Shown here: positions 9,882 through 55,796 of the stretch, one piece after another
Position numbering within the stretch: the stretch's first letter is position 1
How the letters are laid out: each line of letters starts with the position of its first letter
NCBI GenBank assembly: GCA_964406465.1
Contig: CAYORT010000002.1
Location: 58,414 to 122,413, forward strand
Length of the DNA stretch: 64,000 bases
Source: an uncultured Chryseobacterium sp.
Lineage (GTDB): Bacteria; Bacteroidota; Bacteroidia; Flavobacteriales_C; GCA-002722245
Direction of reading: 5' to 3'
The notes under the pieces: model-generated
What the model was told of the DNA's origin: nothing
Database searches by the model: none
The model's input: only the letters and a program-made list of their open reading frames with translations
Translations under genes and position numbers: made by a program

Positions 9882-12800
9882 ATGAACAAAATAATTTTCG
9901 CAAATAACAAAGTATTTTTCGCTTTACTCCTCCTATCACACGTTGCATTCTCTCAAGCCTACAATTTTCGCAACTACTCTGTAAAAGATGGAGTTGCACA
10001 GTCTCAAGTATATAGCCTTCTGCAAGATTCACGAGGCTTTTTATGGATGGGTACCCGCGGTGGTGGTATCACCAAATTTGATGGCATTAACTTTAAGACA
10101 TACAGTGTTCGCGACGGACTCATCAACAACTATGTTTTCAATATCAAGGAAGACGGTGAGCATAATTTATGGATTGGAACCAATGACGGACTCTCGAAAT
10201 TGAATGGTAAAACATTTCAAAACTTCAAACCTAAAAGAAATGGAATGTTTTGGGTGCAAGAAATTGCCATAGATAAACAAAATAGAAAATGGCTGGCTAC
10301 CAATGAGGGAGTTGTTTTGTTTGAGAACGGAAAATTCACCAACATCTCGCAAAAACTTAATTTAAAGAAGGAAATCGTTAATGCCATTCATATAGACAAA
10401 AACGGAGAGGTGTGGTTTGGTACTTCGGGCGGCCTCTTTAAATTTTCTATAGTAAATAATGATTATGTGCTGCAAGGAAAAGGAAGATGGAAAAGCCTAA
10501 TGATCAATTCCATCACTGCCATTAAGGAAGATAAAAATGGAAACATCTATGTAGGCACTTATGGCAATGGTGCATATAAATATGTTAACAAAGAATTTTC
10601 TAGAATCGACTCGAATAGCACACTCAACAAACAAACAGTACTCGATATTTATTTCGATCACCACAACAACATCTGGATAGCCACTTTAAGCAAAGGCTTA
10701 GCAGAATACAACCCAGAAGCAAAATCGCTTGTGTGGCTGGGCGAAAACGAAGGCTTAAGCAACAATCACGTAAGAAGTATCATTCAAGACAACAGTGGAA
10801 ATTTTTGGTTTGGCACATCTGGCGGCGGCGTGTGCAATTACTTTGGAAAACAATTTACTACTTACGATAAATCATCAGGATTAGCAGGAAATTTCATCTA
10901 TAGCATTTATCGCGACAGCAAAAACAAATTATGGATTGGCACTTCCGACAAAGGATTAACCATCCTCGACAGCTCTAAATTCTACACATTCAATAGCGCC
11001 AATGGTTTTGCCGATGTTAAGGTAAAAGCAATGGCAGAAGATGATTTTGGCAATATTTATATAGGCACCGACGGACAAGGAGTGTTTAGATACGACAGCA
11101 CTGGCTTTCATCAGGTGGAAGGTTTGGCTAGAAAATACATTCGTGCCATAGTAAAAGATAAAGACAGCTGCATTTGGATCGCCACCGCAGGAACTGGTTT
11201 GTACAAATTGAATTTAAAAATGGGCTCGCAACGACTTGAAAATTTTAATACAAAATCGGGATTGCTCCACGACAGATTAACCGCCTTACACATAGACAAA
11301 CAAGGTAGATTGTGGTACGGAACAGAAAATGACGGATTTACTTTTCTTCATGCCAAAAGACCAGCCATTACCATAAAAAAAGGATTGCGATCTAACTCGA
11401 TTAGATGCTTCACGGAAGATGAAAATGGTTTTCTGTGGATTGGTACTGCGGGCTCGGGAATTTCTTCCATGCCTTTGTATTATAACAATAATTTCTTGGT
11501 TTCATCATACGATCATGCCAACGGACTCACCTCCTCTAACATTTACTTGCTCACAGTTGACAAACTGAACAACTTGATCGTTGGAACCGAAACCGGATTA
11601 GACTATATCACTTTAGATAAAAACAGAAAACCTATTGAGATAAAACATTACAGCAAAGGCGAAGGATTTACCGGAATAGAAACTTGCGTAAATGCAGTAT
11701 GGAACGACAATGACGGCACGATATGGTTTGGTACCATTAACGGACTCTCGAAATACAATCCGGCCAACAAAATAAAAAATGAATTCGCTCCCATCATTAG
11801 CATTAGCGATGTGAAATTATTTTACGAAAGTATTGTAAACACGAAATACAAAAATTTTGCAGGCGATTGGAATTCGGTAAACTACTTGGAACTACCCTAC
11901 AATCAAAACCACATCAGCTTCGATTTCATGGCCATCAACTTTAGCAATCCCGATGCAGTAAAGTATCAGTGGATGCTAGAAGGATTCGACGAAAACTGTT
12001 CGCCACCTAGCAAAGAACACAGCATAGTATACTCAAATCTTAGCGCCGGCAAATACAAATTCATGGTAAAAGCTTGCAATGAAGATGGCGTTTGGAACAA
12101 AAAACCATTGATCATTTACTTCACCATCGAAGCACCATTTTGGATGAAATGGTGGTTTATTGCCACTGTAGTTTTAGCTATTATTGGCATCTTCTTCATC
12201 ATCGTTAAAATACGCGAGCGAAGAATTACAGCGAAAGCTGAAGAGGAAAGAAAAAAATTACAAATGGAAAAAGATATAGTGGAACTCGAGCAAAAAGCTT
12301 TGCGCTTGCAAATGAATCCGCACTTTATCTTCAACGCCCTCAACTCCATTCAATCGCAAATTGGCACTAACAATGACCAAGCAGCACGCTACTATTTAGC
12401 AAAATTCTCAAGATTGATGCGTCAGATTTTAGACAATTCACGCAACACTTTTATCACTTTAGAAGAGGAAGCGCACACCATTGAAAATTATTTATTGATA
12501 GAGAAATTTTGTAACGGAGATCGCTTCGATTACACCGTAACCATTCAAGATTCGATAGAAAAAGATTATGTTAAAATTCCTCCAATGTTGTTGCAGCCCT
12601 TTGTAGAAAATGCTATTAAACACGGACTCAAACATATCAACGACAAGAGAGGGATGATTCATGTTGATTTCACTGAAAAAGACAACTTGCTTGAATGTTC
12701 TGTAACCGACAACGGCGTTGGTAGAGAGAAAGCTGCTGAAATGAACACCAGCAGCAAAGAAACCTACCACAAGTCAACAGCTCTTTTGGTTACACAAGAG

Positions 12801-12917
12801 CGTTTGGATTTGATGCATGAAAACAATGAAATTAAATCTTTAGAAATTATAGATTTGTACGACGAACAAGGAAATGCTTCAGGGACAAAAGTAGTTGTAA
12901 GAATACCGATTTCGTAA
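9882..12917 (+). CDS. Sensor histidine kinase (LytS/YehU-type) with periplasmic two-component-regulator beta-propeller repeats and a Y_Y_Y domain
   Basis: Signal peptide. Many WIGT..GL propeller repeats. TM helix WWFIATVVLAIIGIFFIIV. His_kinase motif NPHFIFNALNSIQ. HATPase_c region ...DNGVG. Confidence 0.85.
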   Translation: MNKIIFANNKVFFALLLLSHVAFSQAYNFRNYSVKDGVAQSQVYSLLQDSRGFLWMGTRGGGITKFDGINFKTYSVRDGLINNYVFNIKEDGEHNLWIGTNDGLSKLNGKTFQNFKPKRNGMFWVQEIAIDKQNRKWLATNEGVVLFENGKFTNISQKLNLKKEIVNAIHIDKNGEVWFGTSGGLFKFSIVNNDYVLQGKGRWKSLMINSITAIKEDKNGNIYVGTYGNGAYKYVNKEFSRIDSNSTLNKQTVLDIYFDHHNNIWIATLSKGLAEYNPEAKSLVWLGENEGLSNNHVRSIIQDNSGNFWFGTSGGGVCNYFGKQFTTYDKSSGLAGNFIYSIYRDSKNKLWIGTSDKGLTILDSSKFYTFNSANGFADVKVKAMAEDDFGNIYIGTDGQGVFRYDSTGFHQVEGLARKYIRAIVKDKDSCIWIATAGTGLYKLNLKMGSQRLENFNTKSGLLHDRLTALHIDKQGRLWYGTENDGFTFLHAKRPAITIKKGLRSNSIRCFTEDENGFLWIGTAGSGISSMPLYYNNNFLVSSYDHANGLTSSNIYLLTVDKLNNLIVGTETGLDYITLDKNRKPIEIKHYSKGEGFTGIETCVNAVWNDNDGTIWFGTINGLSKYNPANKIKNEFAPIISISDVKLFYESIVNTKYKNFAGDWNSVNYLELPYNQNHISFDFMAINFSNPDAVKYQWMLEGFDENCSPPSKEHSIVYSNLSAGKYKFMVKACNEDGVWNKKPLIIYFTIEAPFWMKWWFIATVVLAIIGIFFIIVKIRERRITAKAEEERKKLQMEKDIVELEQKALRLQMNPHFIFNALNSIQSQIGTNNDQAARYYLAKFSRLMRQILDNSRNTFITLEEEAHTIENYLLIEKFCNGDRFDYTVTIQDSIEKDYVKIPPMLLQPFVENAIKHGLKHINDKRGMIHVDFTEKDNLLECSVTDNGVGREKAAEMNTSSKETYHKSTALLVTQERLDLMHENNEIKSLEIIDLYDEQGNASGTKVVVRIPIS

Positions 12918-13049
12918 TGATAGAAAACAATCCATATATTTCAATTGCTAACTTCCGGGTGCGCACTTCCCTCTTAGAGAAGAGGGGTGCGATTTTGCTT
13001 GCGGGTAAGCAGGGAGATGGATTGCGTAACAACTTAATAAATTAGAATC

Positions 13050-13793
13050 ATGATAAAAGCCATCATCATCGACGACATAGAGCAAGCGCGCGTTACGCTA
13101 AAAAAAGATTTAGAAACTTACGCTGCCGATGTGCAAATCATTGGCGAAGCAAGCGGCGTAATTGAAGGAGCTAAATTGCTCAAAAATACTCAGCCAGATA
13201 TTTTGTTTCTCGACATACAAATGCAAGATGGAAGTGGTTTTGATTTGTTGGATATTTTAAAAGACATTTCTTTCAAAATCATCTTCATCACTGCATCAGA
13301 TGCGCATGCCATCAAAGCGTTTCGTTATGCTGCCATCGATTATTTAATGAAGCCAGTCGACCCCGATGAACTCACTGCTGCCCTAGATAAATTTCGAGCG
13401 CAAAAATTAAATGAAAACGAAAAATACAAATTACTCAACGACTCTTTAAAAAATCATCAAAAACCCAACGAGCGATTGGCTTTGCACACACAAGATAAAA
13501 TCCACATTGTAAACATCAACGATATTTTACGTTGCGAAAGCTCGGTAAACTACACCGAATTCCATTTCAGCGGAGGTAAAAAATTATTGGTAACAAAAAC
13601 TCTAAAAGACTTCGAAGATTTATTAGCCGACCAAGGCTTTTACCGCGTTCACCAATCGCACTTGGTAAACACCAAATACATCAAAGAATTTGTAAAAACA
13701 GATGGTGGATATCTTCTGATGAACGATGGATTTAACGTTCCTGTTTCGGTGAGAAAAAAAGCTGAAGTAATTAAGATGTTAGAAGAACTATAA
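13050..13793 (+). CDS. LytTR-family response regulator (receiver domain plus LytTR DNA-binding domain)
   Basis: Receiver motifs IIDDIE...DILFLDIQM. C-terminal LytTR-like region. It is adjacent to the cognate kinase. Confidence 0.85.
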   Translation: MIKAIIIDDIEQARVTLKKDLETYAADVQIIGEASGVIEGAKLLKNTQPDILFLDIQMQDGSGFDLLDILKDISFKIIFITASDAHAIKAFRYAAIDYLMKPVDPDELTAALDKFRAQKLNENEKYKLLNDSLKNHQKPNERLALHTQDKIHIVNINDILRCESSVNYTEFHFSGGKKLLVTKTLKDFEDLLADQGFYRVHQSHLVNTKYIKEFVKTDGGYLLMNDGFNVPVSVRKKAEVIKMLEEL

Positions 13794-13804
13794 AAACAAA
13801 GAAA

Positions 13805-14662
13805 ATGATTGATTACGACAACAAACACTGGTTTAGATTTTTATTTAAAAGTAGCGGATACCACTTCGATGGTGTATTTTTTAGTTTATTGATATACGGA
13901 GCATTAGTTGGCATTTTAGTTTTTGCGCACTTAAGTTTCGATTTCGATATTTTCCATATCCCCGCATCGTTCCATACGGTGCTAGGTTTGGTGATTGGTT
14001 TACTCTTAGTTTTTAGAACCAACACAGCTTACGAAAGATGGTGGGAAGGAAGAAAACAATTGGGTTCTTTATTAAATACCGCCAGAAATTTAGCAATGAA
14101 ATACAAAGCCTACATAAACCGTGAAGATGATGTTATTTACACCTTACTAGAAGCTTTTCCTTGGACCCTTAAAGAAAATCTAAGATTAAAAGATTACTCA
14201 TCGTTTGCTGAGCATATCACTGCCGACATGATTGCTGCTTTTAACCAGGCTGCACACAAGCCTAATTTTGTTTTAGCCGAGCTAAGCAATAGAACAAATC
14301 AGCTCATGTTGAAAAACAAAATAACGGCCGAACAATTCCTCATTTTAGAAAATAAAATAAGTGAACTCACAGATATTTTAGGTGCTTGCGAAAGAATTAA
14401 AAATACCCCAATTCCTTTCGGCTACGCCATTCATCTAAAAAGAATTTTATTGATTTATCTTCTATCTCTTCCCTTTGCCTTTATTGAAAGTATTGGCTGG
14501 TGGTCGATACCTGTAGCGATGATTGTTTTTTACACCATGATTGGTATCGAATTAATTGCTGAAGAAATTGAAGATCCTTTTGGAACTGATGTGAATGACT
14601 TACCGGTAGACGACTTGGAAGATAAAATTCGCCTGAACGTTGAAGAAATAAAAGAATTTTGA
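13805..14662 (+). CDS. Bestrophin/YneE-family (UPF0187) membrane channel
   Basis: Motif FRTNTAYERWWEGRKQ with TM helices. Length of about 285 aa is typical for the family. Confidence 0.6.
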   Translation: MIDYDNKHWFRFLFKSSGYHFDGVFFSLLIYGALVGILVFAHLSFDFDIFHIPASFHTVLGLVIGLLLVFRTNTAYERWWEGRKQLGSLLNTARNLAMKYKAYINREDDVIYTLLEAFPWTLKENLRLKDYSSFAEHITADMIAAFNQAAHKPNFVLAELSNRTNQLMLKNKITAEQFLILENKISELTDILGACERIKNTPIPFGYAIHLKRILLIYLLSLPFAFIESIGWWSIPVAMIVFYTMIGIELIAEEIEDPFGTDVNDLPVDDLEDKIRLNVEEIKEF

Positions 14663-14755
14663 TTTTTTTCTTCAGGGCTGTAACTTTTGAAATCAACACA
14701 GCTCTTACTGATGTCTTCAGATTCTAAGTCTGAATAATAATATACCCCCTGTGTT

Positions 14756-14789
14756 CCGGAGAGGCGCTCGTCTCTCCGGATTTTTTTTT
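14756..14789 (+). terminator. Rho-independent terminator CCGGAGAGGCGCTCGTCTCTCCGG followed by T9
   Basis: A GC-rich 8-bp stem followed by nine T residues, downstream of the bestrophin-like gene. Confidence 0.8.
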
Positions 14790-14865
14790 GCCTATGTGAC
14801 AAACATCACTGTACATGTTTTTTCATCCATCTAAATTTGAATCGTTAACCAATAAAACAAATGTT

Positions 14866-15069
14866 ATGATTAAGAACATGAGCAATGCAGACAGAATAAT
14901 TAGAATTATCATCTCTGCTATTTTCGCTACACTTTATTTCACAGGCATCACATCTGGAGCCTTAGGAATCACCTTAATAATTGTGGCCACCATCTTCACG
15001 CTAACTTCTTTGATCAATTTTTGTCCGATTTACAAAATCATTGGACTAACTAAATGGGAGAAGAAATAA
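14866..15069 (+). CDS. DUF2892 (YgaP C-terminal-like) small membrane protein
   Basis: Two TM helices and the motif NFCPIYK...G, typical of DUF2892. Internal ATG 14866 is chosen over the ORF-track start 14815. It sits upstream of the rhodanese genes. Confidence 0.55.
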   Translation: MIKNMSNADRIIRIIISAIFATLYFTGITSGALGITLIIVATIFTLTSLINFCPIYKIIGLTKWEKK

Positions 15070-15254
15070 TGATACTTATTAAAACATACGGCTTAACACT
15101 AATAGGTCTTGTAGTGGGTGCTATTGGCGGCTATATCTACTATGCTAAAGTAGGCTGCGAAAGCGGTACCTGTCCTATCACCTCAACTCCATACATCTCC
15201 ACCATTTACGGAGCAATTATGGGAGCATTAACAATAAATATATTCACTAAATAA
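15054..15254 (+). CDS. Small two-TM membrane protein with a CESGTC motif
   Basis: A 66-aa ORF whose two hydrophobic helices flank GCESGTCP. It is co-oriented with DUF2892 and rhodanese. The start may be ATG 15069. Confidence 0.4.
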   Translation: MGEEIMILIKTYGLTLIGLVVGAIGGYIYYAKVGCESGTCPITSTPYISTIYGAIMGALTINIFTK

Positions 15255-15263
15255 ATCATCTTT

Positions 15264-15527
15264 ATGAACACACAAGAAATCATTCAAAAAAAATTAGGAA
15301 CTATTGTAGACGTGAGAACACGAGGCGAGTTTCTGGGCGGACATGTTGAAGGGTCGGTAAATATCCCTCTGAACGAACTACCCGATAAAATTGCGGAATT
15401 GCAAAAATTAAAAGCACCTTTGCTTTTGTGCTGTGCATCGGGAAATAGAAGCGGACAAGCCGAGCGATTTTTAGCACAATACGGCTTAGATGTTAGGAAT
15501 GCTGGGCCGTGGATTAACTGCCTTTAA
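15264..15527 (+). CDS. Single-domain rhodanese (sulfurtransferase)
   Basis: Active-site loop CCASGNRS and motif DVRTRGEFLGGHVEGSVNIP. Confidence 0.85.
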   Translation: MNTQEIIQKKLGTIVDVRTRGEFLGGHVEGSVNIPLNELPDKIAELQKLKAPLLLCCASGNRSGQAERFLAQYGLDVRNAGPWINCL

Positions 15528-15562
15528 CACATTTCAATGATACACCAACTAAATTTTAAAAA

Positions 15563-15877
15563 ATGTTATCAAAAATAAAATCATTACTTGGCCTTGGGCC
15601 ATCTGTAAATTACGCACAACTGGTTAAAGAAGGTGCCATCATTGTTGATGTAAGATCAAAAGGGGAATTCGCTGGTGGTCACATCAAAAAGTCAATCAAC
15701 ATACCTGTAGATAATATCGGTCAGCAATTACACCTCCTTAAAGATAAAAACCAAACCATCATCACTTGCTGTGCTTCGGGCATGAGAAGCAGAATGGCAA
15801 AAGGAATCTTAAAAGCAAAAGGTTATCCAAATGTGCACAATGGAGGAAGTTATATCAGCTTAAACAACAAATTGTAG
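15563..15877 (+). CDS. Single-domain rhodanese (sulfurtransferase), paralog
   Basis: Motifs DVRSKGEFAGGHIKKSINIP and active-site CCASGMRS. Confidence 0.85.
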   Translation: MLSKIKSLLGLGPSVNYAQLVKEGAIIVDVRSKGEFAGGHIKKSINIPVDNIGQQLHLLKDKNQTIITCCASGMRSRMAKGILKAKGYPNVHNGGSYISLNNKL

Positions 15878-15915
15878 TAATCATCGTAGCACAAGAAATC
15901 TTTAAATCAAAAATC

Positions 15916-16350
15916 ATGGAAGCGCATAATTACAACGTAAATCTTACGTGGACAGGTGATCGCAAAGGAACACTTTCTTCACCAGAATTAAATAGCAGTA
16001 TTGAAGTAGCTACACCACCTCAGTTCCCCAAAGGAATAGCCGGCATTTGGTCGCCCGAACACTTCTACACTGCTGCAATAAGTTCTTGTTTAATGACCAC
16101 ATTCTTATCTATTGCAGAGTTCTCGAAATTGGAATTTAAATCTTTTTCTTGTGAAGCAAGTGGTGTTTTAGATACTGTTGAGGGAAAACTATTGATGACT
16201 GAAGTGCACTTGAAACCCACTGTGGTTATAGCCGACGAGAGTTTAAGAGAAAAAGCTGAAAAAATATTACATAAATCTGAAGCAGCTTGCTTAATTTCGA
16301 ACTCAGTTAAGGCGAAAGTCACCATGACTCCAAATATTATTATCGGATAA
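15916..16350 (+). CDS. OsmC/Ohr-family peroxiredoxin-like protein
   Basis: About 145 aa with conserved Cys in ...SSCLMTT... and ...AACLISNS... The internal ATG 15916 is chosen; the ORF-track 5' extension overlaps the rhodanese gene. Confidence 0.7.
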   Translation: MEAHNYNVNLTWTGDRKGTLSSPELNSSIEVATPPQFPKGIAGIWSPEHFYTAAISSCLMTTFLSIAEFSKLEFKSFSCEASGVLDTVEGKLLMTEVHLKPTVVIADESLREKAEKILHKSEAACLISNSVKAKVTMTPNIIIG

Positions 16351-16351
16351 A

Positions 16352-17062
16352 ATGAAAAACATAATTTTAACTCTATTAGCTTCAGCGTTTCTTTTAGCTT
16401 GCGGACAAAACAAAGTAAATTTATTAGGTGCTAACGACTTTGAATCACAAATTAAGAAAGACAGCAGTAGCGCTCAAATAATTGATGTTCGAACTCCCGT
16501 TGAATTTGCCGACGACCATTTAAACAATGCGCAAAACATTGATTACAACAGCGACAAATTTGAAGAAATGGCAAAGAAATTAGACGCTTCAAAACCCACT
16601 TTTGTGTATTGTGCAGGTGGCAAAAGAAGTGCCGATGCTGCCGCTATTTTAGTAAAGTTAGGATTTAAGGATGTGTATGATTTAGACGGCGGATTTCGCG
16701 CTTGGAACAAAGAAGGTAAAGCTACCGCTCTTGGAGCATCGGGTGGGAATAAAGAAATTACCGTTGCCGACTTCAACAAATATGTAGCTTCTAAAAAGTT
16801 GGTACTTGTTGATTTCAATGCACCTTGGTGCGGTCCGTGCCGAATTTTATCTCCAATATTAGATGAAATTGCTGCCGAAAAAATGGGGGTTATCGATATT
16901 TTAAAAATCAATGTTGATGAACAAAAAACCATTGCCAACCATTTTAAAATCGATGGTATTCCAGCTCTTCAACTTTACCAAGATGGCAAAAAAGTGTGGG
17001 AAGGTGTTGGCTTAATGCAAAAAGCACAATTGCTAGAGATCATCGCCGAATTTGAACAGTAG
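16352..17062 (+). CDS. Lipoprotein fusing a rhodanese domain to a thioredoxin domain
   Basis: Lipobox LLACG. Rhodanese motifs IDVRTPVEF and active-site YCAGGKRS. Thioredoxin motif WCGPC. Confidence 0.8.
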   Translation: MKNIILTLLASAFLLACGQNKVNLLGANDFESQIKKDSSSAQIIDVRTPVEFADDHLNNAQNIDYNSDKFEEMAKKLDASKPTFVYCAGGKRSADAAAILVKLGFKDVYDLDGGFRAWNKEGKATALGASGGNKEITVADFNKYVASKKLVLVDFNAPWCGPCRILSPILDEIAAEKMGVIDILKINVDEQKTIANHFKIDGIPALQLYQDGKKVWEGVGLMQKAQLLEIIAEFEQ

Positions 17063-17126: not shown

Positions 17127-18002
17127 ATGAAAACACTTTTTAGCTCAGCACTATTTCTTTTTCTTCTATCGTCGTATCAAAATCTAAATGCCCAAAACGA
17201 CACCACTATTACCATTCCAAAAGAAGATTTTGAAGAAGTATTGAAATATTACTTTCCTTCTAAAACAAAAAACAACAACGTTGATATTTTTACCGACAGG
17301 CCGCATCAAACTGAAACAGCCGAAATGGTTCCTTACAAACATTTTCAAGTAGAAAGCGGTGTTTCGGTGGAAATTGATCACGATGGCATCACCAGAAATG
17401 AAAATGTATACTACAACTCATTATTGATGAAATATGGTATTGGGAGTGGTATGGATTTGCGTCTTGGCTTCGATTTCCTTAATAACAATGCTTTTCAAGG
17501 AGACTCACTAATCTCTAGAACGAAAGGATTTTCAGGCTTTTCGTTTGGCGGTAAGAAATTCCTATTTCGAGGCACTAAATATTTACCGAAGGTAAGCTTG
17601 ATGACCGAAATCTATTTACCTTACTTTGGCAACAAAGCATTTAAACCAAGCTTTACAGGAGGTACCTTAAGATTATTGTGTGAACATGAACTGGGTGAAA
17701 ACACAGAGCTGGAATACAATTTTGGTCCCGATTGGGGAGGTAATCAAGCGAACGTTAGTTATTTCTATGCTGTATCCTTAACGCAAAAAGTCGCTGGGCC
17801 GCTTTCTATCTACGGTGAAATTTTCGGATTTTTTAATGAAAACAATGACTTAAGCTACACCAACGATTTTCGTTGTGATGCTGGATTTGTTTATTTGCTT
17901 AAAAAGAATTTGCAACTCGATTTAGAAGGAGGAATCACTTTTACTACACCGCAAGTAGGTTACTTTGCCGCGTGTGGTGTTTCATGGAGAATTCCTAATT
18001 AG
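17127..18002 (+). CDS. Outer-membrane beta-barrel protein (transporter/MetA-pathway-like family)
   Basis: Signal peptide and alternating beta-strand pattern with aromatic-rich C-terminal strands. Confidence 0.4.
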   Translation: MKTLFSSALFLFLLSSYQNLNAQNDTTITIPKEDFEEVLKYYFPSKTKNNNVDIFTDRPHQTETAEMVPYKHFQVESGVSVEIDHDGITRNENVYYNSLLMKYGIGSGMDLRLGFDFLNNNAFQGDSLISRTKGFSGFSFGGKKFLFRGTKYLPKVSLMTEIYLPYFGNKAFKPSFTGGTLRLLCEHELGENTELEYNFGPDWGGNQANVSYFYAVSLTQKVAGPLSIYGEIFGFFNENNDLSYTNDFRCDAGFVYLLKKNLQLDLEGGITFTTPQVGYFAACGVSWRIPN

Positions 18003-19179: not shown

Positions 19180-19206
19180 AAGACGCCTCCCTTGCGTCTT
19201 TTTTTT
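19180..19206 (+). terminator. Rho-independent terminator AAGACGC-CTCCCTT-GCGTCTT followed by a T-run
   Basis: A 7-bp stem followed by T8, downstream of tsaD. Confidence 0.7.
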
Positions 19207-20365: not shown

Positions 20366-21301
20366 ATGATTAAAGAACACCACAAATGCCTTATTATTGG
20401 CGCCGGACCAGCAGGATACACTGCTGCAATTTATGCTGCAAGAGCTGAATTAAAACCTGTAATGTATGTAGGAATGCAGCCTGGCGGACAGTTAATGGAT
20501 ACTACCGAAGTAGATAATTTCCCTGGTTACCCAAAAGGAGTTGAGGGTCCGCAAATGATGGAAGACATGCGTGCTCAAGCAGAACGATTTGGTACCGACG
20601 TACGTGTGGGTGTTGCTACACAAGTATTTTTTAATGAATCTCCTAAAAGAGTTTTGATTGAAGATAAAGCTGAAATCACTGCTGACACAGTAATCATTGC
20701 AACCGGAGCAACAGCTAAATGGTTGGGCTTGCCTTCTGAAGAAAGATTGAAAAGCGGCGGAGTTTCGGCATGTGCTGTGTGCGACGGTTTTTTCTATCGC
20801 AAACAAGATGTGGCTATTGTAGGTGCAGGTGATACCGCATGTGAAGAAGCTACTTACCTTTCTAAAATTTGCAATAAAGTAACTATGTTGGTGCGCAAAG
20901 ACAGTTTCCGCGCATCGAAAGCAATGGTGAACAGAGTGATGACTACCCCAAACATTGAAGTTTTATTTAATACTGAGACTGTTGAAGTTTTGGGTGAGCA
21001 GGTTGTTGAAGGTGTTAAAGTAAAAAACAACAAAACAAACACTGAAAGTACATTAACAGTTACAGGATTGTTTATTGCAATCGGACATAAACCAAATACA
21101 GATATTTTCAAAGGTCAGTTAAACTTGGACGAAAATGGCTACATCAAAACCATTCCGGGTTCAACCAACACCAATATTCCTGGCGTATTTGCTGCAGGAG
21201 ACGTTCAAGACCACGTGTACCGTCAGGCAATCACCGCTGCAGGAACTGGTTGTATGGCCGCATTAGATGCCGAACGTTGGTTGGCTGCACAAGGACATTA
21301 A
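20366..21301 (+). CDS. trxB: Thioredoxin-disulfide reductase
   Basis: Motifs GAGPAGYTAAIY, redox CAVCDG and GAGDTACEE. Confidence 0.9.
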   Translation: MIKEHHKCLIIGAGPAGYTAAIYAARAELKPVMYVGMQPGGQLMDTTEVDNFPGYPKGVEGPQMMEDMRAQAERFGTDVRVGVATQVFFNESPKRVLIEDKAEITADTVIIATGATAKWLGLPSEERLKSGGVSACAVCDGFFYRKQDVAIVGAGDTACEEATYLSKICNKVTMLVRKDSFRASKAMVNRVMTTPNIEVLFNTETVEVLGEQVVEGVKVKNNKTNTESTLTVTGLFIAIGHKPNTDIFKGQLNLDENGYIKTIPGSTNTNIPGVFAAGDVQDHVYRQAITAAGTGCMAALDAERWLAAQGH

Positions 21302-21310
21302 TTCTATTTT

Positions 21311-21946
21311 ATGAAAGTTGAAATTTGGAGTGATATCGCTTGTCCGTTTTGCTACATTGGCAAACGTCGTTTTGAGCATGCCTTAGAAAAATTCTCAAAA
21401 AAAGGTGAGGTAGAAATCGTTTGGAAAAGCTATCAGTTAGATCCTTATTTCAAACCTCTTCTCGGACAAAACATCCACCAAATGTTGGCTGAGAAAAAAG
21501 GTTGGACAGAAGAGCATGCAAAAAAGCTAAATGAGCAAGTGACTCAAATGGCTAAAGAGGAAGGCTTAAACTATAATATCGATGCTATCATTCCAGCCAA
21601 CACTTTACATGTTCATCGCCTTATTCATTTAGCAGCCAAACATGGTTTGCAAGATGAAGCGAAAGAAAGATTTTTCTCGGCTTATTTTATAGAAGGAAGA
21701 AACCTCAACAGCAAAGATGTTTTAGGCGAATTGGCAGTAGAAATTGGCTTATCATTCGAAGAAGTAGAAACTCTCTTAAACGGAAAAGAATTCGCCGATG
21801 AAGTAAATAGTGATGCGCATGAAGGCGCTGCACTTGGTGTTCGTGGCGTGCCGTTTTTTGTGTTTGATAGAAAGTATGCTATATCGGGCGCACAACCTGA
21901 GCATTTGTTTTTGGAGACGATGGAGAAGGTGGTAGCGGAGAAATAA
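21311..21946 (+). CDS. DsbA/FrnE-family thiol-disulfide oxidoreductase
   Basis: N-terminal CPFC redox motif within a DsbA-like fold. Confidence 0.8.
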   Translation: MKVEIWSDIACPFCYIGKRRFEHALEKFSKKGEVEIVWKSYQLDPYFKPLLGQNIHQMLAEKKGWTEEHAKKLNEQVTQMAKEEGLNYNIDAIIPANTLHVHRLIHLAAKHGLQDEAKERFFSAYFIEGRNLNSKDVLGELAVEIGLSFEEVETLLNGKEFADEVNSDAHEGAALGVRGVPFFVFDRKYAISGAQPEHLFLETMEKVVAEK

Positions 21947-21948: not shown

Positions 21949-22428
21949 ATGTTAAACAACATTATAAAATACAGTGCGATTTTAACAGTTGCGTTGCTTT
22001 TTAATTGGTGGTTATTTACATTTTCATCTATTAATATCCCTGAATTTATTCCAAAGACACCGATTCCTATTAGTGGACTATTTCTTTTTACAGTCATTTT
22101 AACAACCATAATTCTAATTCAAAAAAAAGCACTAAAATCCTTACCGGAAATCTCAATTTCCAAACTCTCCTTCCTAGGATCTACCGTATGTTTTTTATCT
22201 GAAATTGTTTTTCAATCTATCAGACAAACAAGTATAAATGCAAATGCTTTTAACGATAGACTGTATTATTTTGCTGTAGGTGTAATTGGAATTACCCTGT
22301 TTGGTATCGTTTTGTCCTTCTTTGTGGCATTTCAATTAAAAACAAAAAAGACTGACCTTTTAATTCTATTTATAATCGTTTTTCTTTTTATTTTGCGAAT
22401 AATTGATCGCTATTGGATTAGACTATAA
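21949..22428 (+). CDS. Four-TM hypothetical membrane protein tightly coupled to the DsbA-like gene
   Basis: Four predicted TM helices. A 2-nt gap separates it from the upstream gene. No recognisable motif is present. Confidence 0.35.
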   Translation: MLNNIIKYSAILTVALLFNWWLFTFSSINIPEFIPKTPIPISGLFLFTVILTTIILIQKKALKSLPEISISKLSFLGSTVCFLSEIVFQSIRQTSINANAFNDRLYYFAVGVIGITLFGIVLSFFVAFQLKTKKTDLLILFIIVFLFILRIIDRYWIRL

Positions 22429-23713: not shown

Positions 23714-25501
23714 TTACTTCTTCGTTGTCCTCAAATTATTGTACTGGATTATGCCCACCTGTTCGTCGGCTTTAATCAAGTACCCAAAATTAGCGAAAAA
23801 CTGGCAGTATGGAAATCCTATCATACCAATATATGTTATAATTGTTAAACCAACCTTGTAACGCGCATGTATTGAATGCACATAAAAGCGATTATCAATG
23901 GACTCCACGAAGGTAGGCAATACTCTTTTTTGGTCTCTCTTTTTGGCAACTCCTTCGTTCACCTGAATGTTCTCTACTTTACTTGCCCCAGTAGTGATAT
24001 CAAAAGAGGCATAATCAATTGTACCTAAAAAACTTTTTCTCTTTCTTCTTTTCTTAGCTTTCTCATCAAAAGAAGACCCATAGGTAACATAAACAGAGTT
24101 GTTGTGGGTAATAAACTCTAAATCATTTACATAAAGCATATTGGGATAAAGCGCTTTTCTGTCAATATTCTTCGACCAAATAAAATCAACATTTTCGTTG
24201 ATCTTAAATAAGGTAACATTATGTTTCTCGCAATAAACTACCGATCTAGTGGAAGTTGCTCCCGTTTGGGTATTCACCGTCGTTACTGTGTAGTCAATAT
24301 TTTTCATAATAGATGTAAGTAAGATCATTTCACCTTCGGGCAAAAACACAACATCTTCTATGGTATACTGCCCATTGATAATGGCAAGAGTACTTTTCTT
24401 GTTTTTGGTATCTTCAATAAAATCATCTTTATCTTGTTTATACAATTCCTTTAACTGCTCCTTAGTAAAAGCATTGGTTTTTGTAGATTCTAGAGTTAAG
24501 GTATTTAGGTCGTAAACTTGAAAATAGATTCCACTAATTCCGCTTATAACTTCGGCATCTAGCTTAGCTTTTTTTCCTTTCTTTGATGGAGGAGCTAAGG
24601 TTTGCTTCTCTTGCTTCGTATCTGAATAAAATCCGAAAAGCTTTATTTTACCATCTTTTACAAAATACTTAGAAGAGTAGCTATGCTTTCCATCTAACTT
24701 AAACTCGAGATACTTCGATTTCCCACTTGAAATATCTACCAACATTAAAGTTGTTTTAGATAGCGCATCTTTCTCCGTTTCTTTATAAGAAATATTGGTT
24801 GATAATGTTTTGCCATCAAGTGCATTAAAAGATATCACACTAGAGGTAAAAAATGCATTTGCTTTATCGGTAAAATCAATAGATTTTTTTTCGTTAACTG
24901 TATTGTCTTTGTGCAATACTGCATACTCAATTTTAAACTTACCCAATTTGCTATCCAATCGATAACTACCAATAACTACGCTATCACCAAGATCCTTGTC
25001 GGTGCAAACAAAAAAATCGGGCACCTCGTTTTTCTTCTTGCTTTTTGCTGAGAATATCTTCTTTAAAGACTTGATTGGCTTAAGAAGGGGATCGAAAGAC
25101 TCTACAAACAATTCACGTGATTTTTTTTTCTTATCGTACTTTTCCCAAAAAACATAAATAATATTTTCACGAACATCAATACTGATGAAATCTAAGTCTT
25201 TATGGGCCTTGTATGATTTCTCTTCCGATTTGTACCCGGCAAGAAGGGCTTGTGAAATTTTAATAGTGTTAGTTTTATCATAGCAAGTTAGCTTTACCCT
25301 TTTGTTGCGTTTGCCACCTAAGCCAATTATAAAGTTGGCCGATTTCATGTAAATATATTTCGAGGTAGAGCCCGCAAAATAATCCATTAAACCATCTTTA
25401 GCATTATCTACTGTTTGCTTATCTCCCCAATCTAACCTTAAATCTTGAGACATTGCGGCTTGGGTCACAAAAAATGCAACCACGAGTGATAGAAATTTCA
25501 T
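23714..25501 (-). CDS. Hypothetical secreted protein (595 aa) with no recognisable domain
   Basis: Signal peptide MKFLSLVVAFFVTQAAMSQ. Lys-rich patches including KRRKRKS. It lies 14 nt downstream of the 273-aa gene on the same strand. Confidence 0.45.
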   Translation of the reverse strand: MKFLSLVVAFFVTQAAMSQDLRLDWGDKQTVDNAKDGLMDYFAGSTSKYIYMKSANFIIGLGGKRNKRVKLTCYDKTNTIKISQALLAGYKSEEKSYKAHKDLDFISIDVRENIIYVFWEKYDKKKKSRELFVESFDPLLKPIKSLKKIFSAKSKKKNEVPDFFVCTDKDLGDSVVIGSYRLDSKLGKFKIEYAVLHKDNTVNEKKSIDFTDKANAFFTSSVISFNALDGKTLSTNISYKETEKDALSKTTLMLVDISSGKSKYLEFKLDGKHSYSSKYFVKDGKIKLFGFYSDTKQEKQTLAPPSKKGKKAKLDAEVISGISGIYFQVYDLNTLTLESTKTNAFTKEQLKELYKQDKDDFIEDTKNKKSTLAIINGQYTIEDVVFLPEGEMILLTSIMKNIDYTVTTVNTQTGATSTRSVVYCEKHNVTLFKINENVDFIWSKNIDRKALYPNMLYVNDLEFITHNNSVYVTYGSSFDEKAKKRRKRKSFLGTIDYASFDITTGASKVENIQVNEGVAKKRDQKRVLPTFVESIDNRFYVHSIHARYKVGLTIITYIGMIGFPYCQFFANFGYLIKADEQVGIIQYNNLRTTKK

Positions 25502-48080: not shown

Positions 48081-48081
48081 G

Positions 48082-48693
48082 ATGGATAGCACAAAAATAT
48101 TTCACGGCTTACTAAATGACCAAGTAAAACAAAGTGGGCAAATTAAATCATTTCCTGCAGAAACAATCATCATTAATGAAGACAGCTACATCAAATCCAT
48201 TCCAATAGTTTTAAAAGGAAGTATTCGCGTAATGCGAACCGACGACGACGGCAAAGAAATATTGTTGTACTACATTCGACCGGGAGAAAGCTGTATCATG
48301 TCTTTTCTAGGTGGCATTCATCACGAAACAAGCAAAGTAAAGGCTATCGCAGAAGAAGATGTTGAAATTTTGATGATACCGCTAGAAAAAGCAAGTGAAT
48401 GGATAAAGGAATATCCAGAATGGACCGATTTTATTTTTAAACTGTACCACAAGAGATTTGAAGAACTTTTAGGCGTAGTAAATGCTGTAGCTTTTCAGAA
48501 ACTCGACACCAGAATCTTACAGTTACTAGAACAAAAATCGTTGCTGCACAACAGTAAAGAAATCGCCATCACCCATCAACAACTGGCTGATGAAATGGGA
48601 ACTTCTCGAGAGGCCGTTTCACGCATTCTTAAACAAATGGAAAACGCCCATCTCATTAAATTGGGAAGAAACAAGATACTAATGACATCTTAA
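48082..48693 (+). CDS. Crp/Fnr-family transcriptional regulator
   Basis: cNMP-binding beta-roll plus C-terminal HTH motif TSREAVSRILKQM. Confidence 0.8.
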   Translation: MDSTKIFHGLLNDQVKQSGQIKSFPAETIIINEDSYIKSIPIVLKGSIRVMRTDDDGKEILLYYIRPGESCIMSFLGGIHHETSKVKAIAEEDVEILMIPLEKASEWIKEYPEWTDFIFKLYHKRFEELLGVVNAVAFQKLDTRILQLLEQKSLLHNSKEIAITHQQLADEMGTSREAVSRILKQMENAHLIKLGRNKILMTS

Positions 48694-48817
48694 TAGCTTT
48701 CCAGCAAGCATCGTGTTTACTTTTTGTGAACTTCTCGTTACTTAAATATTAAGCTTACAAAAAGCCTTTTCAGCACTTTTGTTTTCGCCTATTTTCACCT
48801 TCCACATACCGTTGAAA

Positions 48818-52420: not shown

Positions 52421-52882
52421 TTAATTATAAGTTTCTAATATTTGTTCTGCGTGATTCTTAGTTTTTACTTTATCAAAAATTCTTTCAATTGTACCGTTCT
52501 CGTCTATTACAAAGGTTGTTCTTATTATTCCTTCATATTCAACTCCCATAAATTTCTTTTTACCCCAAACGCCAAAAGAATTGATTACTTTTTTGTCAAC
52601 ATCTGCTATCAACCTAAAAGGCAATTCATATTTCGCTATAAAATTTTGATGTTTTTTCTCTGTGTCTGCACTTACTCCAACCACCTCAAACCCCTTCCTC
52701 TGCAAGGCTGCATAATTATCTCGCAAGTTACAAGATTCTGCTGTACAACCAGGGGTATTATCTTTAGGATAGAAAAACAGCACTACTTTCTTTCCAATAA
52801 AATCAGATAGTCTTATGGGCATACCTCTCTCATCAACGGCTACAACTACTGGGGCTTTATCTCCTATTTTTAATTTTGACAT
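52421..52882 (-). CDS. bcp: Thioredoxin-dependent peroxiredoxin Bcp
   Basis: Active site PGCT...C. 153 aa. It lies directly upstream of recA, an arrangement common in Bacteroidota. Confidence 0.85.
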
Positions 52883-55568: not shown

Positions 55569-55796
55569 TTATTTTTTATCCAGCGGACCGCGCATTTTCA
55601 CTATCAGTCCGTTTAAAAAATTTCTCATCACCTGATCGCCGCAAATACGATAATTGGGATGATCTTCCTTCCTGAAAAATGCACTTAATTCTGATTTAGA
55701 AATTTCGAAATTCGATAATTTCAAAATCTCAATAATATCGTCATCACGAAGTTGCAACGCAACTCGCAATTTTTTCAAAATATCGTTATTTACCAT
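55569..55796 (-). CDS. DUF1456 (YehS-like) small protein
   Basis: A 75-aa protein with N-terminal motif NNDILKKLRVAL. Confidence 0.5.
   Translation of the reverse strand: MVNNDILKKLRVALQLRDDDIIEILKLSNFEISKSELSAFFRKEDHPNYRICGDQVMRNFLNGLIVKMRGPLDKK

What the first reader, a model, noticed from the sequence alone, without database searches (positions are those of the whole stretch)
14815..17062. Split YgaP-like sulfur-trafficking cluster: DUF2892, a CESGTC mini-membrane protein, two rhodaneses, OsmC and a rhodanese-thioredoxin lipoprotein
Six co-oriented genes combine every part of a persulfide relay. DUF2892 is fused to rhodanese in E. coli YgaP but is separate here. Alongside it are a 66-aa two-TM protein with a CxxxC-like motif, two single-domain rhodaneses with CCASG active sites, an OsmC/Ohr peroxidase-like protein and a lipoprotein fusing rhodanese to a WCGPC thioredoxin. 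The cluster is bounded upstream by a strong terminator and downstream by an outer-membrane barrel gene. It looks like a dedicated envelope sulfane-sulfur or thiol-stress module that, as far as I know, has not been characterised in Flavobacteriia.
Basis: partly seen in the sequence, partly recalled or inferred. Interest (0 to 1): 0.55.

Follow-up and report, generated by a model that had tools for sequence, protein, structure and literature searches.

The report
Sulfur-stress operon with distant Crp-type regulator
Six small genes for sulfur-carrying and thiol-repair proteins form a real operon that recurs across Bacteroidota and appears to belong to an undescribed sulfide-stress gene network controlled by a Crp/Fnr-type regulator encoded 31 kb away.

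Summary
Window 14815-17062 (+) carries six packed, co-oriented genes: DUF2892/YgaP-like TM, DUF6132 (invariant GCxSGxC), two single-domain rhodaneses (CCASGxRS), a two-Cys OsmC-like protein, and a lipoprotein fusing rhodanese to a WCGPC thioredoxin. A strong terminator lies upstream.

The cluster is not a local oddity. The same gene set recurs in Flavobacteriales, Cytophagales, Chitinophagales, Sphingobacteriales and a Kapaibacterium-like MAG. There it is often joined by SQR, persulfide dioxygenase-rhodanese, CoA-disulfide-reductase-rhodanese, TauE, YeeE/YedE, TsdA-like cytochrome and DsrE/DsrC-like genes. It usually sits directly after a highly conserved Crp/Fnr regulator.

The window has that regulator at 48082-48693. 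These genes share a rigid promoter: a GTAAC-N4-GTTAC-type palindrome exactly 30 nt before the TTTG of the Bacteroidetes -7 box. The window has exactly one such composite, at 14796-14839, right in front of the cluster.

Best reading: this is the sulfurtransferase and thiol-reductase arm of a sulfide / reactive-sulfur stress regulon, activated by the Crp/Fnr regulator. The signal, the enzyme activities and any membrane relay are inferred, not shown. I found no paper describing it. Novelty: new variant of a known kind.

The parts
14755..14790 (+). Intrinsic terminator ending the upstream bestrophin gene. It insulates the cluster from upstream transcription.
   Evidence: stem of 11 pairs (7 G-C), loop of 4, followed by a T9 run.
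14796..14809 (.). Predicted Crp/Fnr-family operator, GTGACAAACATCAC (TGTGA-N6-TCAC-like).
   Evidence: It scores 8.9 bits with a PWM built without it, which is weak alone. It is the only site in the 64-kb window with TTTG ending exactly 30 nt downstream. Close relatives keep the half-sites (L086 and L088: GTAACATTCATCAC). L093 has GTGACAGACATCAC, identical at 13 of 14 positions, at the same spacing.
14832..14839 (+). Bacteroidetes-type -7 promoter box, TAAATTTG (consensus TAnnTTTG).
   Evidence: Sequence. The consensus is from general knowledge. The G lies 36.5 nt from the operator centre and 27 nt before ATG 14866.
14866..15069 (+). DUF2892 / YgaP-like two-TM protein, 67 aa, with invariant FCP(L/I)Y near the cytoplasmic end of TM2.
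   Evidence: (PF11127, E 4e-16) and the alignment. Gene callers missed it in the identical contigs L081 and L082.
15054..15254 (+). DUF6132 two-TM protein, 61-66 aa, with invariant GCxSGxCxI(T/S)S between the helices. The start may be 15069.
   Evidence: PF19628; invariant Cys pair, Lys-rich C-termini. Fused to thioredoxin in P0074 and P0086.
15264..15527 (+). Rhodanese 1, 87 aa, cytoplasmic, active-site loop CCASGNRS.
   Evidence: and the alignment. The CC motif is conserved, and the gene always comes first of the pair.
15563..15877 (+). Rhodanese 2, 104 aa, cytoplasmic, loop CCASGMRS, with a conserved N-terminal LKxLFGxGPKVD motif.
   Evidence: The nearest solved structures are rhodanese domains of CstB-type PDO (3r2u, 3tp9) and CoA-persulfide reductase (8a56).
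15916..16350 (+). OsmC-family protein, 144 aa, with both family Cys residues (SSCLMTTF, AACLISNS).
   Evidence: The closest solved structures are the uncharacterised OsmC-like proteins VCA0330 and Ta0195.
16352..17062 (+). Lipoprotein with a rhodanese domain (YCAGGKRS) and a thioredoxin domain (WCGPC) joined by a flexible linker. It starts 1 nt after the OsmC stop.
   Evidence: invariant C17, C87, WCxPC; each domain has pLDDT above 90, the linker at 128-133 is below 50, and pTM is 0.49.
17127..18002 (+). Outer-membrane barrel (PF13557). Possibly co-transcribed; membership in the system is uncertain.
   Evidence: and no terminator before it. It is adjacent to the fusion gene in L081 and L088. 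It is replaced by an OprB porin in L084 and absent in L086.
48082..48693 (+). Crp/Fnr-family regulator, 203 aa, predicted activator of the cluster. It has a single Cys (C71) in the motif GESCIMSFLGGIH.
   Evidence: 60% identical to the regulator next to the L069 cluster; family of more than 7000 proteins; 6 of 6 orthologues are directly followed by the cluster. Cys position and conservation.

Best explanation
The six genes are one operon. It forms the sulfurtransferase and thiol-reductase arm of a Bacteroidota-wide regulon for sulfide and reactive sulfur species (RSS).

Proposed mechanism:
1. The Crp/Fnr-family regulator at 48082-48693 binds the palindrome at 14796-14809. The site is centred about 42 bp upstream of the expected transcription start, the classical class-II activator position. 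Binding switches on transcription just downstream of the terminator.
2. The two cytoplasmic rhodaneses take sulfane sulfur from low-molecular-weight persulfides, polysulfide or thiosulfate onto their CCxSGxRS cysteine. They then pass it to thiol acceptors or thioredoxin.
3. The OsmC-like protein removes hydroperoxide-type by-products.
4. DUF2892 and DUF6132 are two-helix inner-membrane proteins with invariant cysteines. They tether or pass on sulfur or reducing equivalents at the membrane.
5. The lipoprotein works in the periplasm. Its rhodanese domain captures sulfane sulfur and the tethered thioredoxin resolves it, protecting envelope thiols.

Shown here: gene content, conservation, the shared promoter architecture, and the regulator-cluster linkage.
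Inferred: the signal, activation rather than repression, all enzyme activities, the topologies, and the membrane steps.
For: Domains.

Tight packing: a TAATG overlap, a 1-nt OsmC/fusion junction, and no internal terminator.

Conserved gene order:
- Found in L069, L016, L017, L021, L035, L036, L044, L079, L005, L012 and L018.
- Found in the regulator-anchored loci L090-L095.

Neighbours in relatives are canonical sulfide-detoxification genes:
- MBL/PDO-rhodanese, CoADR-rhodanese, YeeE, TauE and SQR-like.
- TsdA/SoxA-type cytochrome c, DsrE-like and DsrC-like.

Shared promoter:
- 68 palindrome hits in the loci. 27 fall within 200 nt upstream of cluster-family genes, a zone that is 5.8% of the sequence.
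- The palindrome with TTTG at exactly +30 occurs 39 times. The mean at the other 50 offsets is 4.3.
- It precedes rhodanese, SQR, TauE, YeeE, PDO-rhodanese, DUF2892, DUF6132, thioredoxin and fusion-protein genes.
- The window has one composite hit, at the cluster.
- An independent check on loci not used for training found the site between the regulator and the first cluster gene in L090, L091, L093, L094 and L095. It also found it upstream of the cluster in L086 and L088.

Other support:
- The consensus equals the published HcpR2-branch Crp/Fnr motif GTAACnnnnGTTAC (PMC1274295).
- In L079 the same cluster follows an ArsR-family regulator, the family of known RSS sensors, and has no composite promoter.
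- Rhodanese 2 is closest to rhodanese domains of CstB and CoA-persulfide reductase.
- A stand-alone DUF2892 gene rises about 10-fold during H2S oxidation in Azospira (PMC5358917).
- E. coli ygaP is in the sulfide-responsive ygaVP operon (PMC9774250).
Against: - No SQR, PDO, TauE or YeeE homologue was found in the 64-kb window, so the local link to sulfide oxidation is indirect.
- The window's operator is a weak PWM match. Ten equally good matches occur in the window against about 11 expected by chance. Its significance rests on spacing, position and conservation in relatives.
- The regulator is 31 kb away, so control in this genome is inferred.
- In the 80%-identical relative L088 the first four genes are gone and OsmC is split. 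The cluster is therefore dispensable.
- The core next to the regulator (rhodanese, rhodanese, OsmC, thioredoxin) would fit a general thiol or peroxide stress response equally well.
- The ORFs scanned in the window include no DsbD/CcdA to keep a periplasmic thioredoxin reduced.
- There are no expression or biochemical data.
Confidence: 0.6

Rival explanations
1. General thiol, peroxide or electrophile stress operon with no specific tie to sulfide. A redox-sensing Crp/Fnr regulator induces OsmC peroxidase, thioredoxin and rhodaneses to repair oxidised cysteines. Sulfide genes joined the regulon only in some lineages.
For: The part most constantly linked to the regulator is rhodanese-rhodanese-OsmC-thioredoxin, without SQR or PDO. 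OsmC keeps both peroxidatic Cys residues. Thioredoxin reductase, DsbA-like and Bcp-type peroxiredoxin genes lie in the same window.
Against: The same promoter motif drives SQR, PDO-rhodanese, TauE, YeeE, TsdA-like and DsrE/DsrC-like genes in several orders. Rhodanese 2 groups with persulfide-enzyme rhodanese domains. The cluster swaps to an ArsR-type regulator in L079.
Confidence: 0.2
2. Selenium (or tellurium) trafficking. The rhodaneses and thioredoxin deliver or detoxify selenide or selenite for SelD/SelU.
For: In the closest relatives L088 and L089, selU and selD lie between the outer-membrane barrel and tsaD, right after the fusion gene. TehB/TPMT-like methyltransferases occur in several related clusters. 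There are weak NCBIfam hits to selenoprotein-type rhodanese and OsmC models.
Against: No SelD or SelU was found in the window or in the 80 fusion-anchored loci; only rhodanese-domain cross-hits appeared. The NCBIfam hits are far below cut-off. The regulon partners are sulfur-specific.
Confidence: 0.05
3. Thiophilic-metal (Cu, Hg, Cd) defence. Cys-rich small membrane proteins, thioredoxins and HMA proteins buffer or export metal.
For: HMA-domain proteins with CxGC sit inside the cluster in L035, L036, L044 and L077. L093 has a multicopper oxidase and DUF2202 inside the cluster. A P-type ATPase lies upstream of the regulator in L069.
Against: None of these metal genes is in the window. They are sporadic. 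The L069 ATPase is of the general cation type with no HMA domain found. Rhodaneses and the sulfide-oxidation genes are not explained.
Confidence: 0.05
4. The genes are neighbours through conserved synteny only and have no common regulation or function.
For: The fusion gene and tsaD are syntenic in four lineages whatever the other genes. Most fusion-protein homologues stand alone.
Against: There are overlapping or 1-nt junctions. The order is conserved across four orders. There are domain fusions: DUF6132-thioredoxin and small Cys-rich TM-thioredoxin. There is a shared promoter.
Confidence: 0.03

Closest known systems
E. coli ygaVP operon (YgaV, an ArsR/SqrR-type sulfide-responsive repressor; YgaP, rhodanese fused to a DUF2892 two-TM anchor)
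   Same: It combines a rhodanese with the YgaP-like TM module (PF11127) and belongs to a sulfide-responsive unit (PMC9774250).
   Different: Here the TM module is a separate 67-aa protein, and there are two soluble rhodaneses. The predicted regulator is Crp/Fnr-type rather than ArsR-type. DUF6132, OsmC and a periplasmic rhodanese-thioredoxin are added.
CstR-controlled cst operon of Staphylococcus aureus and CstR regulons of Enterococcus (CstA, CstB PDO-rhodanese, SQR, TauE, CoA-persulfide reductase-rhodanese)
   Same: The relatives' regulon has the same enzyme repertoire: PDO-rhodanese, CoADR-rhodanese, SQR and TauE. Rhodanese 2 is most similar to the rhodanese domains of 3r2u (CstB) and 8a56 (CoAPR).
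   Different: There is no CsoR-family regulator and no TusA or DsrE multidomain sulfurtransferase in the window. The small Cys membrane proteins, OsmC and the lipoprotein fusion are not part of cst. The organisms are Gram-negative Bacteroidota.
BigR/SqrR (ArsR-family) sulfide regulons of Xylella, Agrobacterium, Rhodobacter and Acinetobacter
   Same: These are Gram-negative RSS regulons with PDO-rhodanese, TauE and YeeE-type genes. One relative (L079) has an ArsR-family gene in front of the same cluster.
   Different: In the window and most relatives the regulator is Crp/Fnr-family with an activator-type site position, not a repressor operator.
HcpR2 branch of Crp/Fnr regulators (NO-responsive; target hcp; motif GTAACnnnnGTTAC)
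   Same: The DNA motif consensus is the same (PMC1274295), and so is the protein superfamily.
   Different: The targets here are sulfur genes, and no hcp was seen in any locus. No PDB chain named HcpR appeared among the 31 hits at E up to 1e-5. The effector pocket carries a single conserved Cys (GESCIMSFLGGIH).
E. coli GlpE and PspE with thioredoxin (thiosulfate:thioredoxin sulfurtransferase; PspE is periplasmic)
   Same: These are single-domain CX4R rhodaneses working with thioredoxin. PspE shows that a rhodanese can act in the periplasm. NCBIfam hits to the PspE and GlpE models are below cut-off.
   Different: Here rhodanese and thioredoxin are one lipid-anchored polypeptide with a flexible linker. 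No solved structure has this fusion.
Ohr/OsmC thiol peroxidases
   Same: It has the PF02566 fold and both catalytic Cys positions.
   Different: It scores far below the cut-offs of the Ohr, OsmC and SACOL1771 subfamily models. The nearest solved relatives are uncharacterised (VCA0330, Ta0195).

Membership tests
Rhodanese-type sulfurtransferase (single domain, GlpE/PspE-like) | Match to the rhodanese homology domain above the curated cut-off | tested here: met
   PF00581 at 51.4, 61.3 and 76.0 bits against a cut-off of 22.2, for rhodanese 1, rhodanese 2 and the fusion protein.
Rhodanese-type sulfurtransferase (single domain, GlpE/PspE-like) | Catalytic Cys in a six-residue CX4(R/S/T) loop, not the seven-residue CX5R loop of Cdc25/arsenate reductases | tested here: met
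   Sequences: C-ASGN-R, C-ASGM-R and C-AGGK-R. The Cys is invariant in the alignments. Loop-length rule from general knowledge.
Rhodanese-type sulfurtransferase (single domain, GlpE/PspE-like) | Equivalog-level match to GlpE or PspE | tested here: not met
   best 45.3 bits (PspE) and 64.4 bits (GlpE, fusion protein) against cut-offs of 102.
Rhodanese-type sulfurtransferase (single domain, GlpE/PspE-like) | Sulfur transfer activity (thiosulfate or persulfide to an acceptor) | not testable with these tools
   Needs an enzyme assay.
Thioredoxin | Thioredoxin fold with a WCGPC active site, above the NCBIfam equivalog cut-off | tested here: met
   TIGR01068 at 107 bits against a cut-off of 96.8. 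WCGPC is at residues 159-163, and WCxPC is invariant.
Bacterial lipoprotein (periplasm-facing) | Signal peptide ending in a lipobox with an invariant +1 Cys | tested here: met
   The sequence is MKNIILTLLASAFLLAC-G. C17 is invariant in 23 homologues. No dedicated predictor was run. No acidic surface-export signal follows the Cys (by eye).
OsmC/Ohr peroxiredoxin | PF02566 domain with both conserved Cys | tested here: met
   63.9 bits against a cut-off of 27.5. The Cys residues in SSCLMTTF and AACLISNS are conserved.
OsmC/Ohr peroxiredoxin | Membership of a characterised subfamily (Ohr, OsmC, SACOL1771) | tested here: not met
   58.7 against 166 (SACOL1771), 30.7 against 88.9 (Ohr), and 28.1 against 85.8 (OsmC).
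YgaP (E. coli inner-membrane rhodanese) | YgaP-like two-TM domain | tested here: met
   PF11127 at 59.3 bits against a cut-off of 25.3.
YgaP (E. coli inner-membrane rhodanese) | Rhodanese domain fused N-terminally to the TM domain in one polypeptide | tested here: not met
   The ORF is 67-84 aa and TM-only. The rhodaneses are separate genes.
DUF6132 | Match to PF19628 above the cut-off | tested here: met
   34.2 bits against a cut-off of 23.2. The GCxSGxC motif is invariant.
Dedicated RSS-sensor regulons (CstR/CsoR, SqrR-BigR/ArsR, FisR families) | A regulator of one of these three families adjacent to or controlling the operon | tested here: not met
   The adjacent upstream genes are a LytTR response regulator and a bestrophin. 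The linked regulator is Crp/Fnr-family. Only L079 has an ArsR-family gene. The list of known sensor families is from PMC13467558.
Dedicated RSS-sensor regulons (CstR/CsoR, SqrR-BigR/ArsR, FisR families) | Regulon holds SQR, PDO, CoA-persulfide reductase, sulfurtransferases, TauE and YeeE | tested here: met
   Met in relatives. In the window only the sulfurtransferases are present.
HcpR2-type Crp/Fnr regulon | Operator GTAACnnnnGTTAC upstream of the target genes | tested here: met
   The motif is from PMC1274295. The window's site is the TGTGA-like variant GTGACAAACATCAC.
HcpR2-type Crp/Fnr regulon | The target is hcp (hybrid cluster protein), with an NO/haem-based signal | tested here: inconclusive
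   No hcp was annotated among the genes listed for any locus, and none was found behind a composite promoter. Whole genomes were not searched. The effector is not testable here.

The most novel reading that the evidence does not exclude
The conserved Crp/Fnr regulator has a single pocket cysteine and a neighbouring histidine (GESCIMSFLGGIH). It may be a fourth, undescribed class of dedicated sulfide / reactive-sulfur sensor, alongside the CsoR, ArsR and Fis families. It would act as a class-II activator of a phylum-wide Bacteroidota regulon. Within that regulon the tiny Cys-bearing membrane proteins (DUF2892, DUF6132, and the unnamed GCCGxxGC protein) would form a minimal membrane link. That link would connect cytoplasmic thioredoxin and rhodanese with a periplasmic rhodanese-thioredoxin lipoprotein.
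Probability: 0.3. Interest if true: 0.75.

Novelty: new variant of a known kind. Interest (0 to 1): 0.6.

Why it matters
Sulfide and persulfide homeostasis is well mapped in Firmicutes and Proteobacteria. The papers I could search hold nothing comparable for Bacteroidota, which live in sulfide-rich guts, sediments and lakes.

If the prediction holds, it gives three things:
- a phylum-wide regulon with a defined operator and promoter geometry that can be tested by EMSA and reporter fusions;
- a new regulator family for reactive-sulfur sensing;
- first functional contexts for two domains of unknown function (DUF2892 stand-alone, DUF6132) and for an unnamed Cys-rich small membrane protein.

The periplasmic rhodanese-thioredoxin fusion has no solved or characterised counterpart. 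It would be a candidate envelope depersulfidase.

Tried and rejected
1. A plain TGTGA-N6-TCACA scan gave only scattered hits. The real motif emerged from inspecting upstream regions.
2. The window's operator is not significant on PWM score alone: 10 hits against about 11 expected. I accepted it only after the +30 TTTG spacing test and the conservation in relatives.
3. I looked for covariation between the recognition helix (R-E or R-V at CRP positions 180/181) and G or A at motif position 3. All R-V regulators have GTAAC, but R-E regulators have either base (L095 has R-E with GTAAC). The result is inconclusive and was not used.
4. The selenium link was rejected: SelD and SelU are absent outside L088 and L089.
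5. A strong palindrome at window 30563 (17.5 bits) lies inside a glycosyltransferase gene and lacks the +30 TTTG. I treated it as unrelated.
6. A search for SQR, PDO, CoADR, YeeE, TauE, HMA, the methyltransferase, DUF983 and the small Cys-rich TM protein in the window found none.
7. No DsbD/CcdA appeared among the window ORFs scanned.
8. Rfam found no RNA element in the window.
9. No PDB entry has a rhodanese-thioredoxin fusion.
10. The AlphaFold model gives no fixed inter-domain orientation (pTM 0.49), so no geometry for a Cys-to-Cys relay could be derived.
11. My profile HMMs for multi-domain families cross-matched through the rhodanese domain. The labels 'PDO_Rhd' and 'CoADR_Rhd' there are unreliable, so I relied on Pfam.
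12. The organism could not be named. The nearest named protein is from a 'Flavobacteriales bacterium' MAG, with the regulator 96% identical.


Full report
**1. What is in the sequence**

Window 14815-17062 holds six co-oriented ORFs.
- YgaP-like_TM / DUF2892 (E 4e-16).
- DUF6132 (E 2e-8).
- Two single-domain rhodaneses (E 1.6e-13 and 1.3e-16).
- OsmC (E 2e-17).
- A 236-aa protein with rhodanese (E 3e-21) plus thioredoxin (E 1.5e-26). It also passes the NCBIfam thioredoxin equivalog.

The fusion protein begins with a signal peptide ending in LLAC. That Cys, the rhodanese Cys (YCAGGKRS) and WCxPC are invariant in 23 homologues.

Gene starts need correcting:
- DUF2892 most likely starts at ATG 14866.
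- OsmC starts at ATG 15916.
- DUF6132 starts at 15054 or at 15069, the latter overlapping the DUF2892 stop as TAATG.

The OsmC stop and the fusion start are 1 nt apart. A strong terminator (14755-14790) precedes the cluster. None follows it until after tsaD, near 19180-19200. The outer-membrane barrel (PF13557, 17127-18002) and tsaD may therefore be co-transcribed. Rfam finds no RNA element in the window.

**2. Conservation**

The fusion protein has about 70 full-length homologue clusters, nearly all from Bacteroidota. I fetched 80 genomic loci around such homologues and searched their ORFs with the window proteins.
- About a quarter carry a multi-gene cluster in the same order: (DUF2892)-(DUF6132)-Rhd1-Rhd2-(small Cys-rich TM protein)-(OsmC)-Trx-RhdTrx.
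- The rest carry the fusion gene alone.
- L069 has all six window families plus a stand-alone thioredoxin, DUF983 and the small TM protein.
- Rhd1 and Rhd2 are distinct, ordered paralogues. Each has a near-invariant CCxSGxRS loop.

Identical contigs (L081-L083) repeat the window's arrangement. The composition varies among closer relatives:
- The 68% relative has Rhd-Rhd-OsmC-RhdTrx-tsaD.
- The 54% relative has OsmC-RhdTrx-porin-tsaD.
- The 80% relative has lost the first four genes, has a split OsmC, and carries selU-selD after the barrel gene.

**3. Neighbours in relatives**

Pfam scans of recurrent neighbours found the following:
- MBL-fold persulfide-dioxygenase-like proteins fused to two rhodanese domains.
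- CoA-disulfide-reductase-like flavoproteins fused to rhodanese.
- YeeE/YedE, TauE and SQR-like flavoproteins.
- A SoxA/TsdA-type dihaem cytochrome, and DsrE-like and DsrC/TusE-like proteins.
- DoxX, a TolC-type protein, TehB/TPMT-like methyltransferases and HMA proteins.
- A roughly 205-aa Crp/Fnr-family regulator directly upstream.

This is the repertoire that a 2026 review lists for RSS regulons (PMC13467558). Rhodanese 2 is most similar to the rhodanese domains of CstB-type PDO (3r2u, 3tp9) and CoA-persulfide reductase (8a56) among solved structures.

**4. The regulator**

The window encodes an orthologue of that regulator at 48082-48693, 31 kb away. It is 60% identical to the one beside the L069 cluster. 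The family is very large and unusually conserved: 7128 proteins at E up to 1e-20, and many at 70% identity or more across orders.

Starting from the regulator gives an independent sample. Six of six orthologues looked up are immediately followed by (DUF2892 or DUF6132)-Rhd-(Rhd)-OsmC-(Trx). L093 adds TauE, a methyltransferase, PDO-rhodanese, the small TM protein and the fusion protein.

The orthologues share GESCIMSFLGGIH, which usually contains the protein's only Cys. In the alignment to E. coli CRP this Cys lies at the start of the cAMP phosphate-binding cassette. The nearest PDB entry, 3dv8, has a Cys at the same place. There is no FNR-type N-terminal Cys cluster.

**5. The promoter**

Upstream of the first cluster gene in many loci I saw a palindrome of the type GTAAC-N4-GTTAC. 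That is the consensus published for the HcpR2 branch of Crp/Fnr regulators (PMC1274295).

- A PWM gave 68 hits in 836 kb of loci. 27 lay within 200 nt upstream of cluster-family genes, a zone covering 5.8% of the sequence. 11 of those 27 were training sites.
- The distance from the palindrome to the TTTG of the Bacteroidetes -7 box (TAnnTTTG, general knowledge) is fixed. Palindrome plus TTTG ending exactly 30 nt downstream occurs 39 times. The mean at the other 50 offsets tested is 4.3, with a range of 0-11.
- These composite promoters precede rhodanese, SQR, TauE, YeeE, PDO-rhodanese, DUF2892, DUF6132, thioredoxin, fusion-protein, TsdA-like, DoxX and TolC-type genes.

The window's own palindrome is GTGACAAACATCAC (14796-14809). 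It scores only 8.9 bits with a PWM built without it, no better than about 10 chance matches in the window. It is nevertheless the single composite hit in all 64 kb on both strands. Its centre is 63.5 nt before ATG 14866, inside the 55-78 nt range seen elsewhere.

Loci not used for training confirm it:
- L090, L091/92 and L094 have a composite site between the regulator stop and the first cluster gene.
- L095 has one at offset 31.
- L093 has GTGACAGACATCAC, identical at 13 of 14 positions to the window's site, at offset 30.
- The close relatives L086/87 and L088 have GTAACATTCATCAC at the same position.

The site centre lies 36.5 nt from the G of TTTG. With a start site a few bases downstream, that is about -42, the class-II activator position of CRP/FNR proteins (general knowledge). 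In L079 the same cluster follows an ArsR-family gene and has no composite promoter. That is a regulator swap to a family known to sense RSS.

**6. The small membrane proteins and the fusion**

- DUF2892 homologues keep FCP(L/I)Y at the end of TM2 and have basic termini.
- DUF6132 homologues keep GGYIYYxKxGCxxGxCxI(T/S)SxP and have Lys-rich C-termini. By the positive-inside rule both termini would be cytoplasmic and the Cys pair would face the periplasm. This is inferred.
- DUF6132 is fused to a C-terminal thioredoxin in P0074 and P0086.
- A further small protein without a Pfam family (WxFxRxxRL...NTGCCGxxGC) is fused to thioredoxin in L011.
- The AlphaFold model of the lipoprotein shows two confident domains and a disordered linker, with pTM 0.49. 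It is a tethered pair rather than a rigid unit. No solved structure has this fusion.

**7. Interpretation**

The best-supported reading is that the six genes are the sulfurtransferase and thiol-reductase arm of a sulfide/RSS stress regulon that is widespread in Bacteroidota. In this genome the regulator at 48082-48693 would drive it through the operator at 14796-14809.

Supporting literature:
- A stand-alone DUF2892 gene is induced about 10-fold during H2S oxidation in Azospira (PMC5358917).
- ygaP is in the sulfide-responsive ygaVP operon (PMC9774250).

Weak points:
- No SQR or PDO in the window.
- A weak operator score.
- A distant regulator.
- Loss of the genes in a close relative.
- No DsbD/CcdA found among the ORFs scanned.
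- A core (rhodanese, rhodanese, OsmC, thioredoxin) that would also suit a general thiol or peroxide stress response.

Selenium trafficking was considered because of the selU-selD neighbours. It is unlikely, because SelD and SelU are absent from all 80 loci and from the window. A metal role is suggested only by sporadic HMA, multicopper-oxidase and ATPase neighbours.

**8. Novelty**

Operons of rhodaneses with PDO, SQR and TauE under CstR, BigR/SqrR/YgaV or FisR are known. The searchable literature contains nothing on this cluster, on DUF6132, or on a Crp/Fnr regulator for sqr/pdo-type genes. I class it as a new variant of a known kind.

The most novel reading still open is that the regulator is a new class of RSS sensor, and that the Cys-bearing mini-proteins link cytoplasmic and periplasmic thiol chemistry.

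Noticed in passing
window 46833-48693: The Crp/Fnr regulator (48082-48693) starts 2 nt after a 415-aa metallophosphoesterase gene (46833-48080). In Cyclobacteriaceae-like loci a Metallophos gene and a PepSY_TM_like_2 gene lie just upstream of the orthologous regulator (L090, L091, L094, L095).
   Followed up: partly
window 30563-30576: A near-perfect palindrome, GGAACAATAGTTAC, is the best PWM hit in the window at 17.5 bits. It lies inside a family-2 glycosyltransferase gene (29408-31381) and has no TTTG at +30. It may be chance or an internal site.
   Followed up: partly
L088 6253-6999 and 8686-10750; L089: In the 80%-identical relative, OsmC is split into two ORFs (69 + 73 aa), only a rhodanese remnant is left upstream, and selU-selD sit between the outer-membrane barrel gene and tsaD.
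   Followed up: partly
L081 1772-2162; L082 1600-1990: Public gene calls on contigs identical to the window leave the DUF2892 gene uncalled, as a 390-nt 'empty' gap. The same may apply to the 264-nt gap after the regulator in L091.
   Followed up: partly
L069 4581-4850, L021 5343-5597, L036 5768-6019, L035 4091-4354, L011 5779-6288: A recurrent protein of about 85 aa with no Pfam family (WxFxRxxRL ... NTGCCGxxGC) sits between rhodanese 2 and thioredoxin in relatives. It is fused to thioredoxin in L011 and absent from the window.
   Followed up: partly
window 20366-21946: A thioredoxin-reductase-like flavoprotein (20366-21301) and a DsbA-like protein (21311-21946) lie just beyond tsaD. The same pair follows tsaD in L084 and L086, so this thiol-redox neighbourhood is syntenic.
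   Followed up: no
window 9882-14662: A Reg_prop/Y_Y_Y histidine kinase (9882-12917), a LytTR response regulator (13050-13793) and a bacterial bestrophin anion channel (13805-14662) lie in a row. The regulator-bestrophin pair is kept in L081 and L088.
   Followed up: no
L035 4363-4647, L036 4831-5109, L044 5126-5398, L077 5779-6030: HMA-domain proteins with CxGC and a conserved C-terminal SY(A/V/M)SCxxGK motif are embedded in the cluster in four relatives. L093 has a multicopper oxidase and DUF2202 inside its cluster.
   Followed up: no
window 21949-22428, 23714-25501 (-), 48779-49720, 63283-63933 (-): Four sizeable ORFs (159, 595, 313 and 216 aa) have no Pfam match at the thresholds used.
   Followed up: no
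window 52421-52882 (-) and 55786-56370 (-): A Bcp-type AhpC/TSA peroxiredoxin lies next to recA, and there is a TlpA-like thioredoxin-fold protein. These are further thiol-redox genes in the window with no evident link to the cluster.
   Followed up: no
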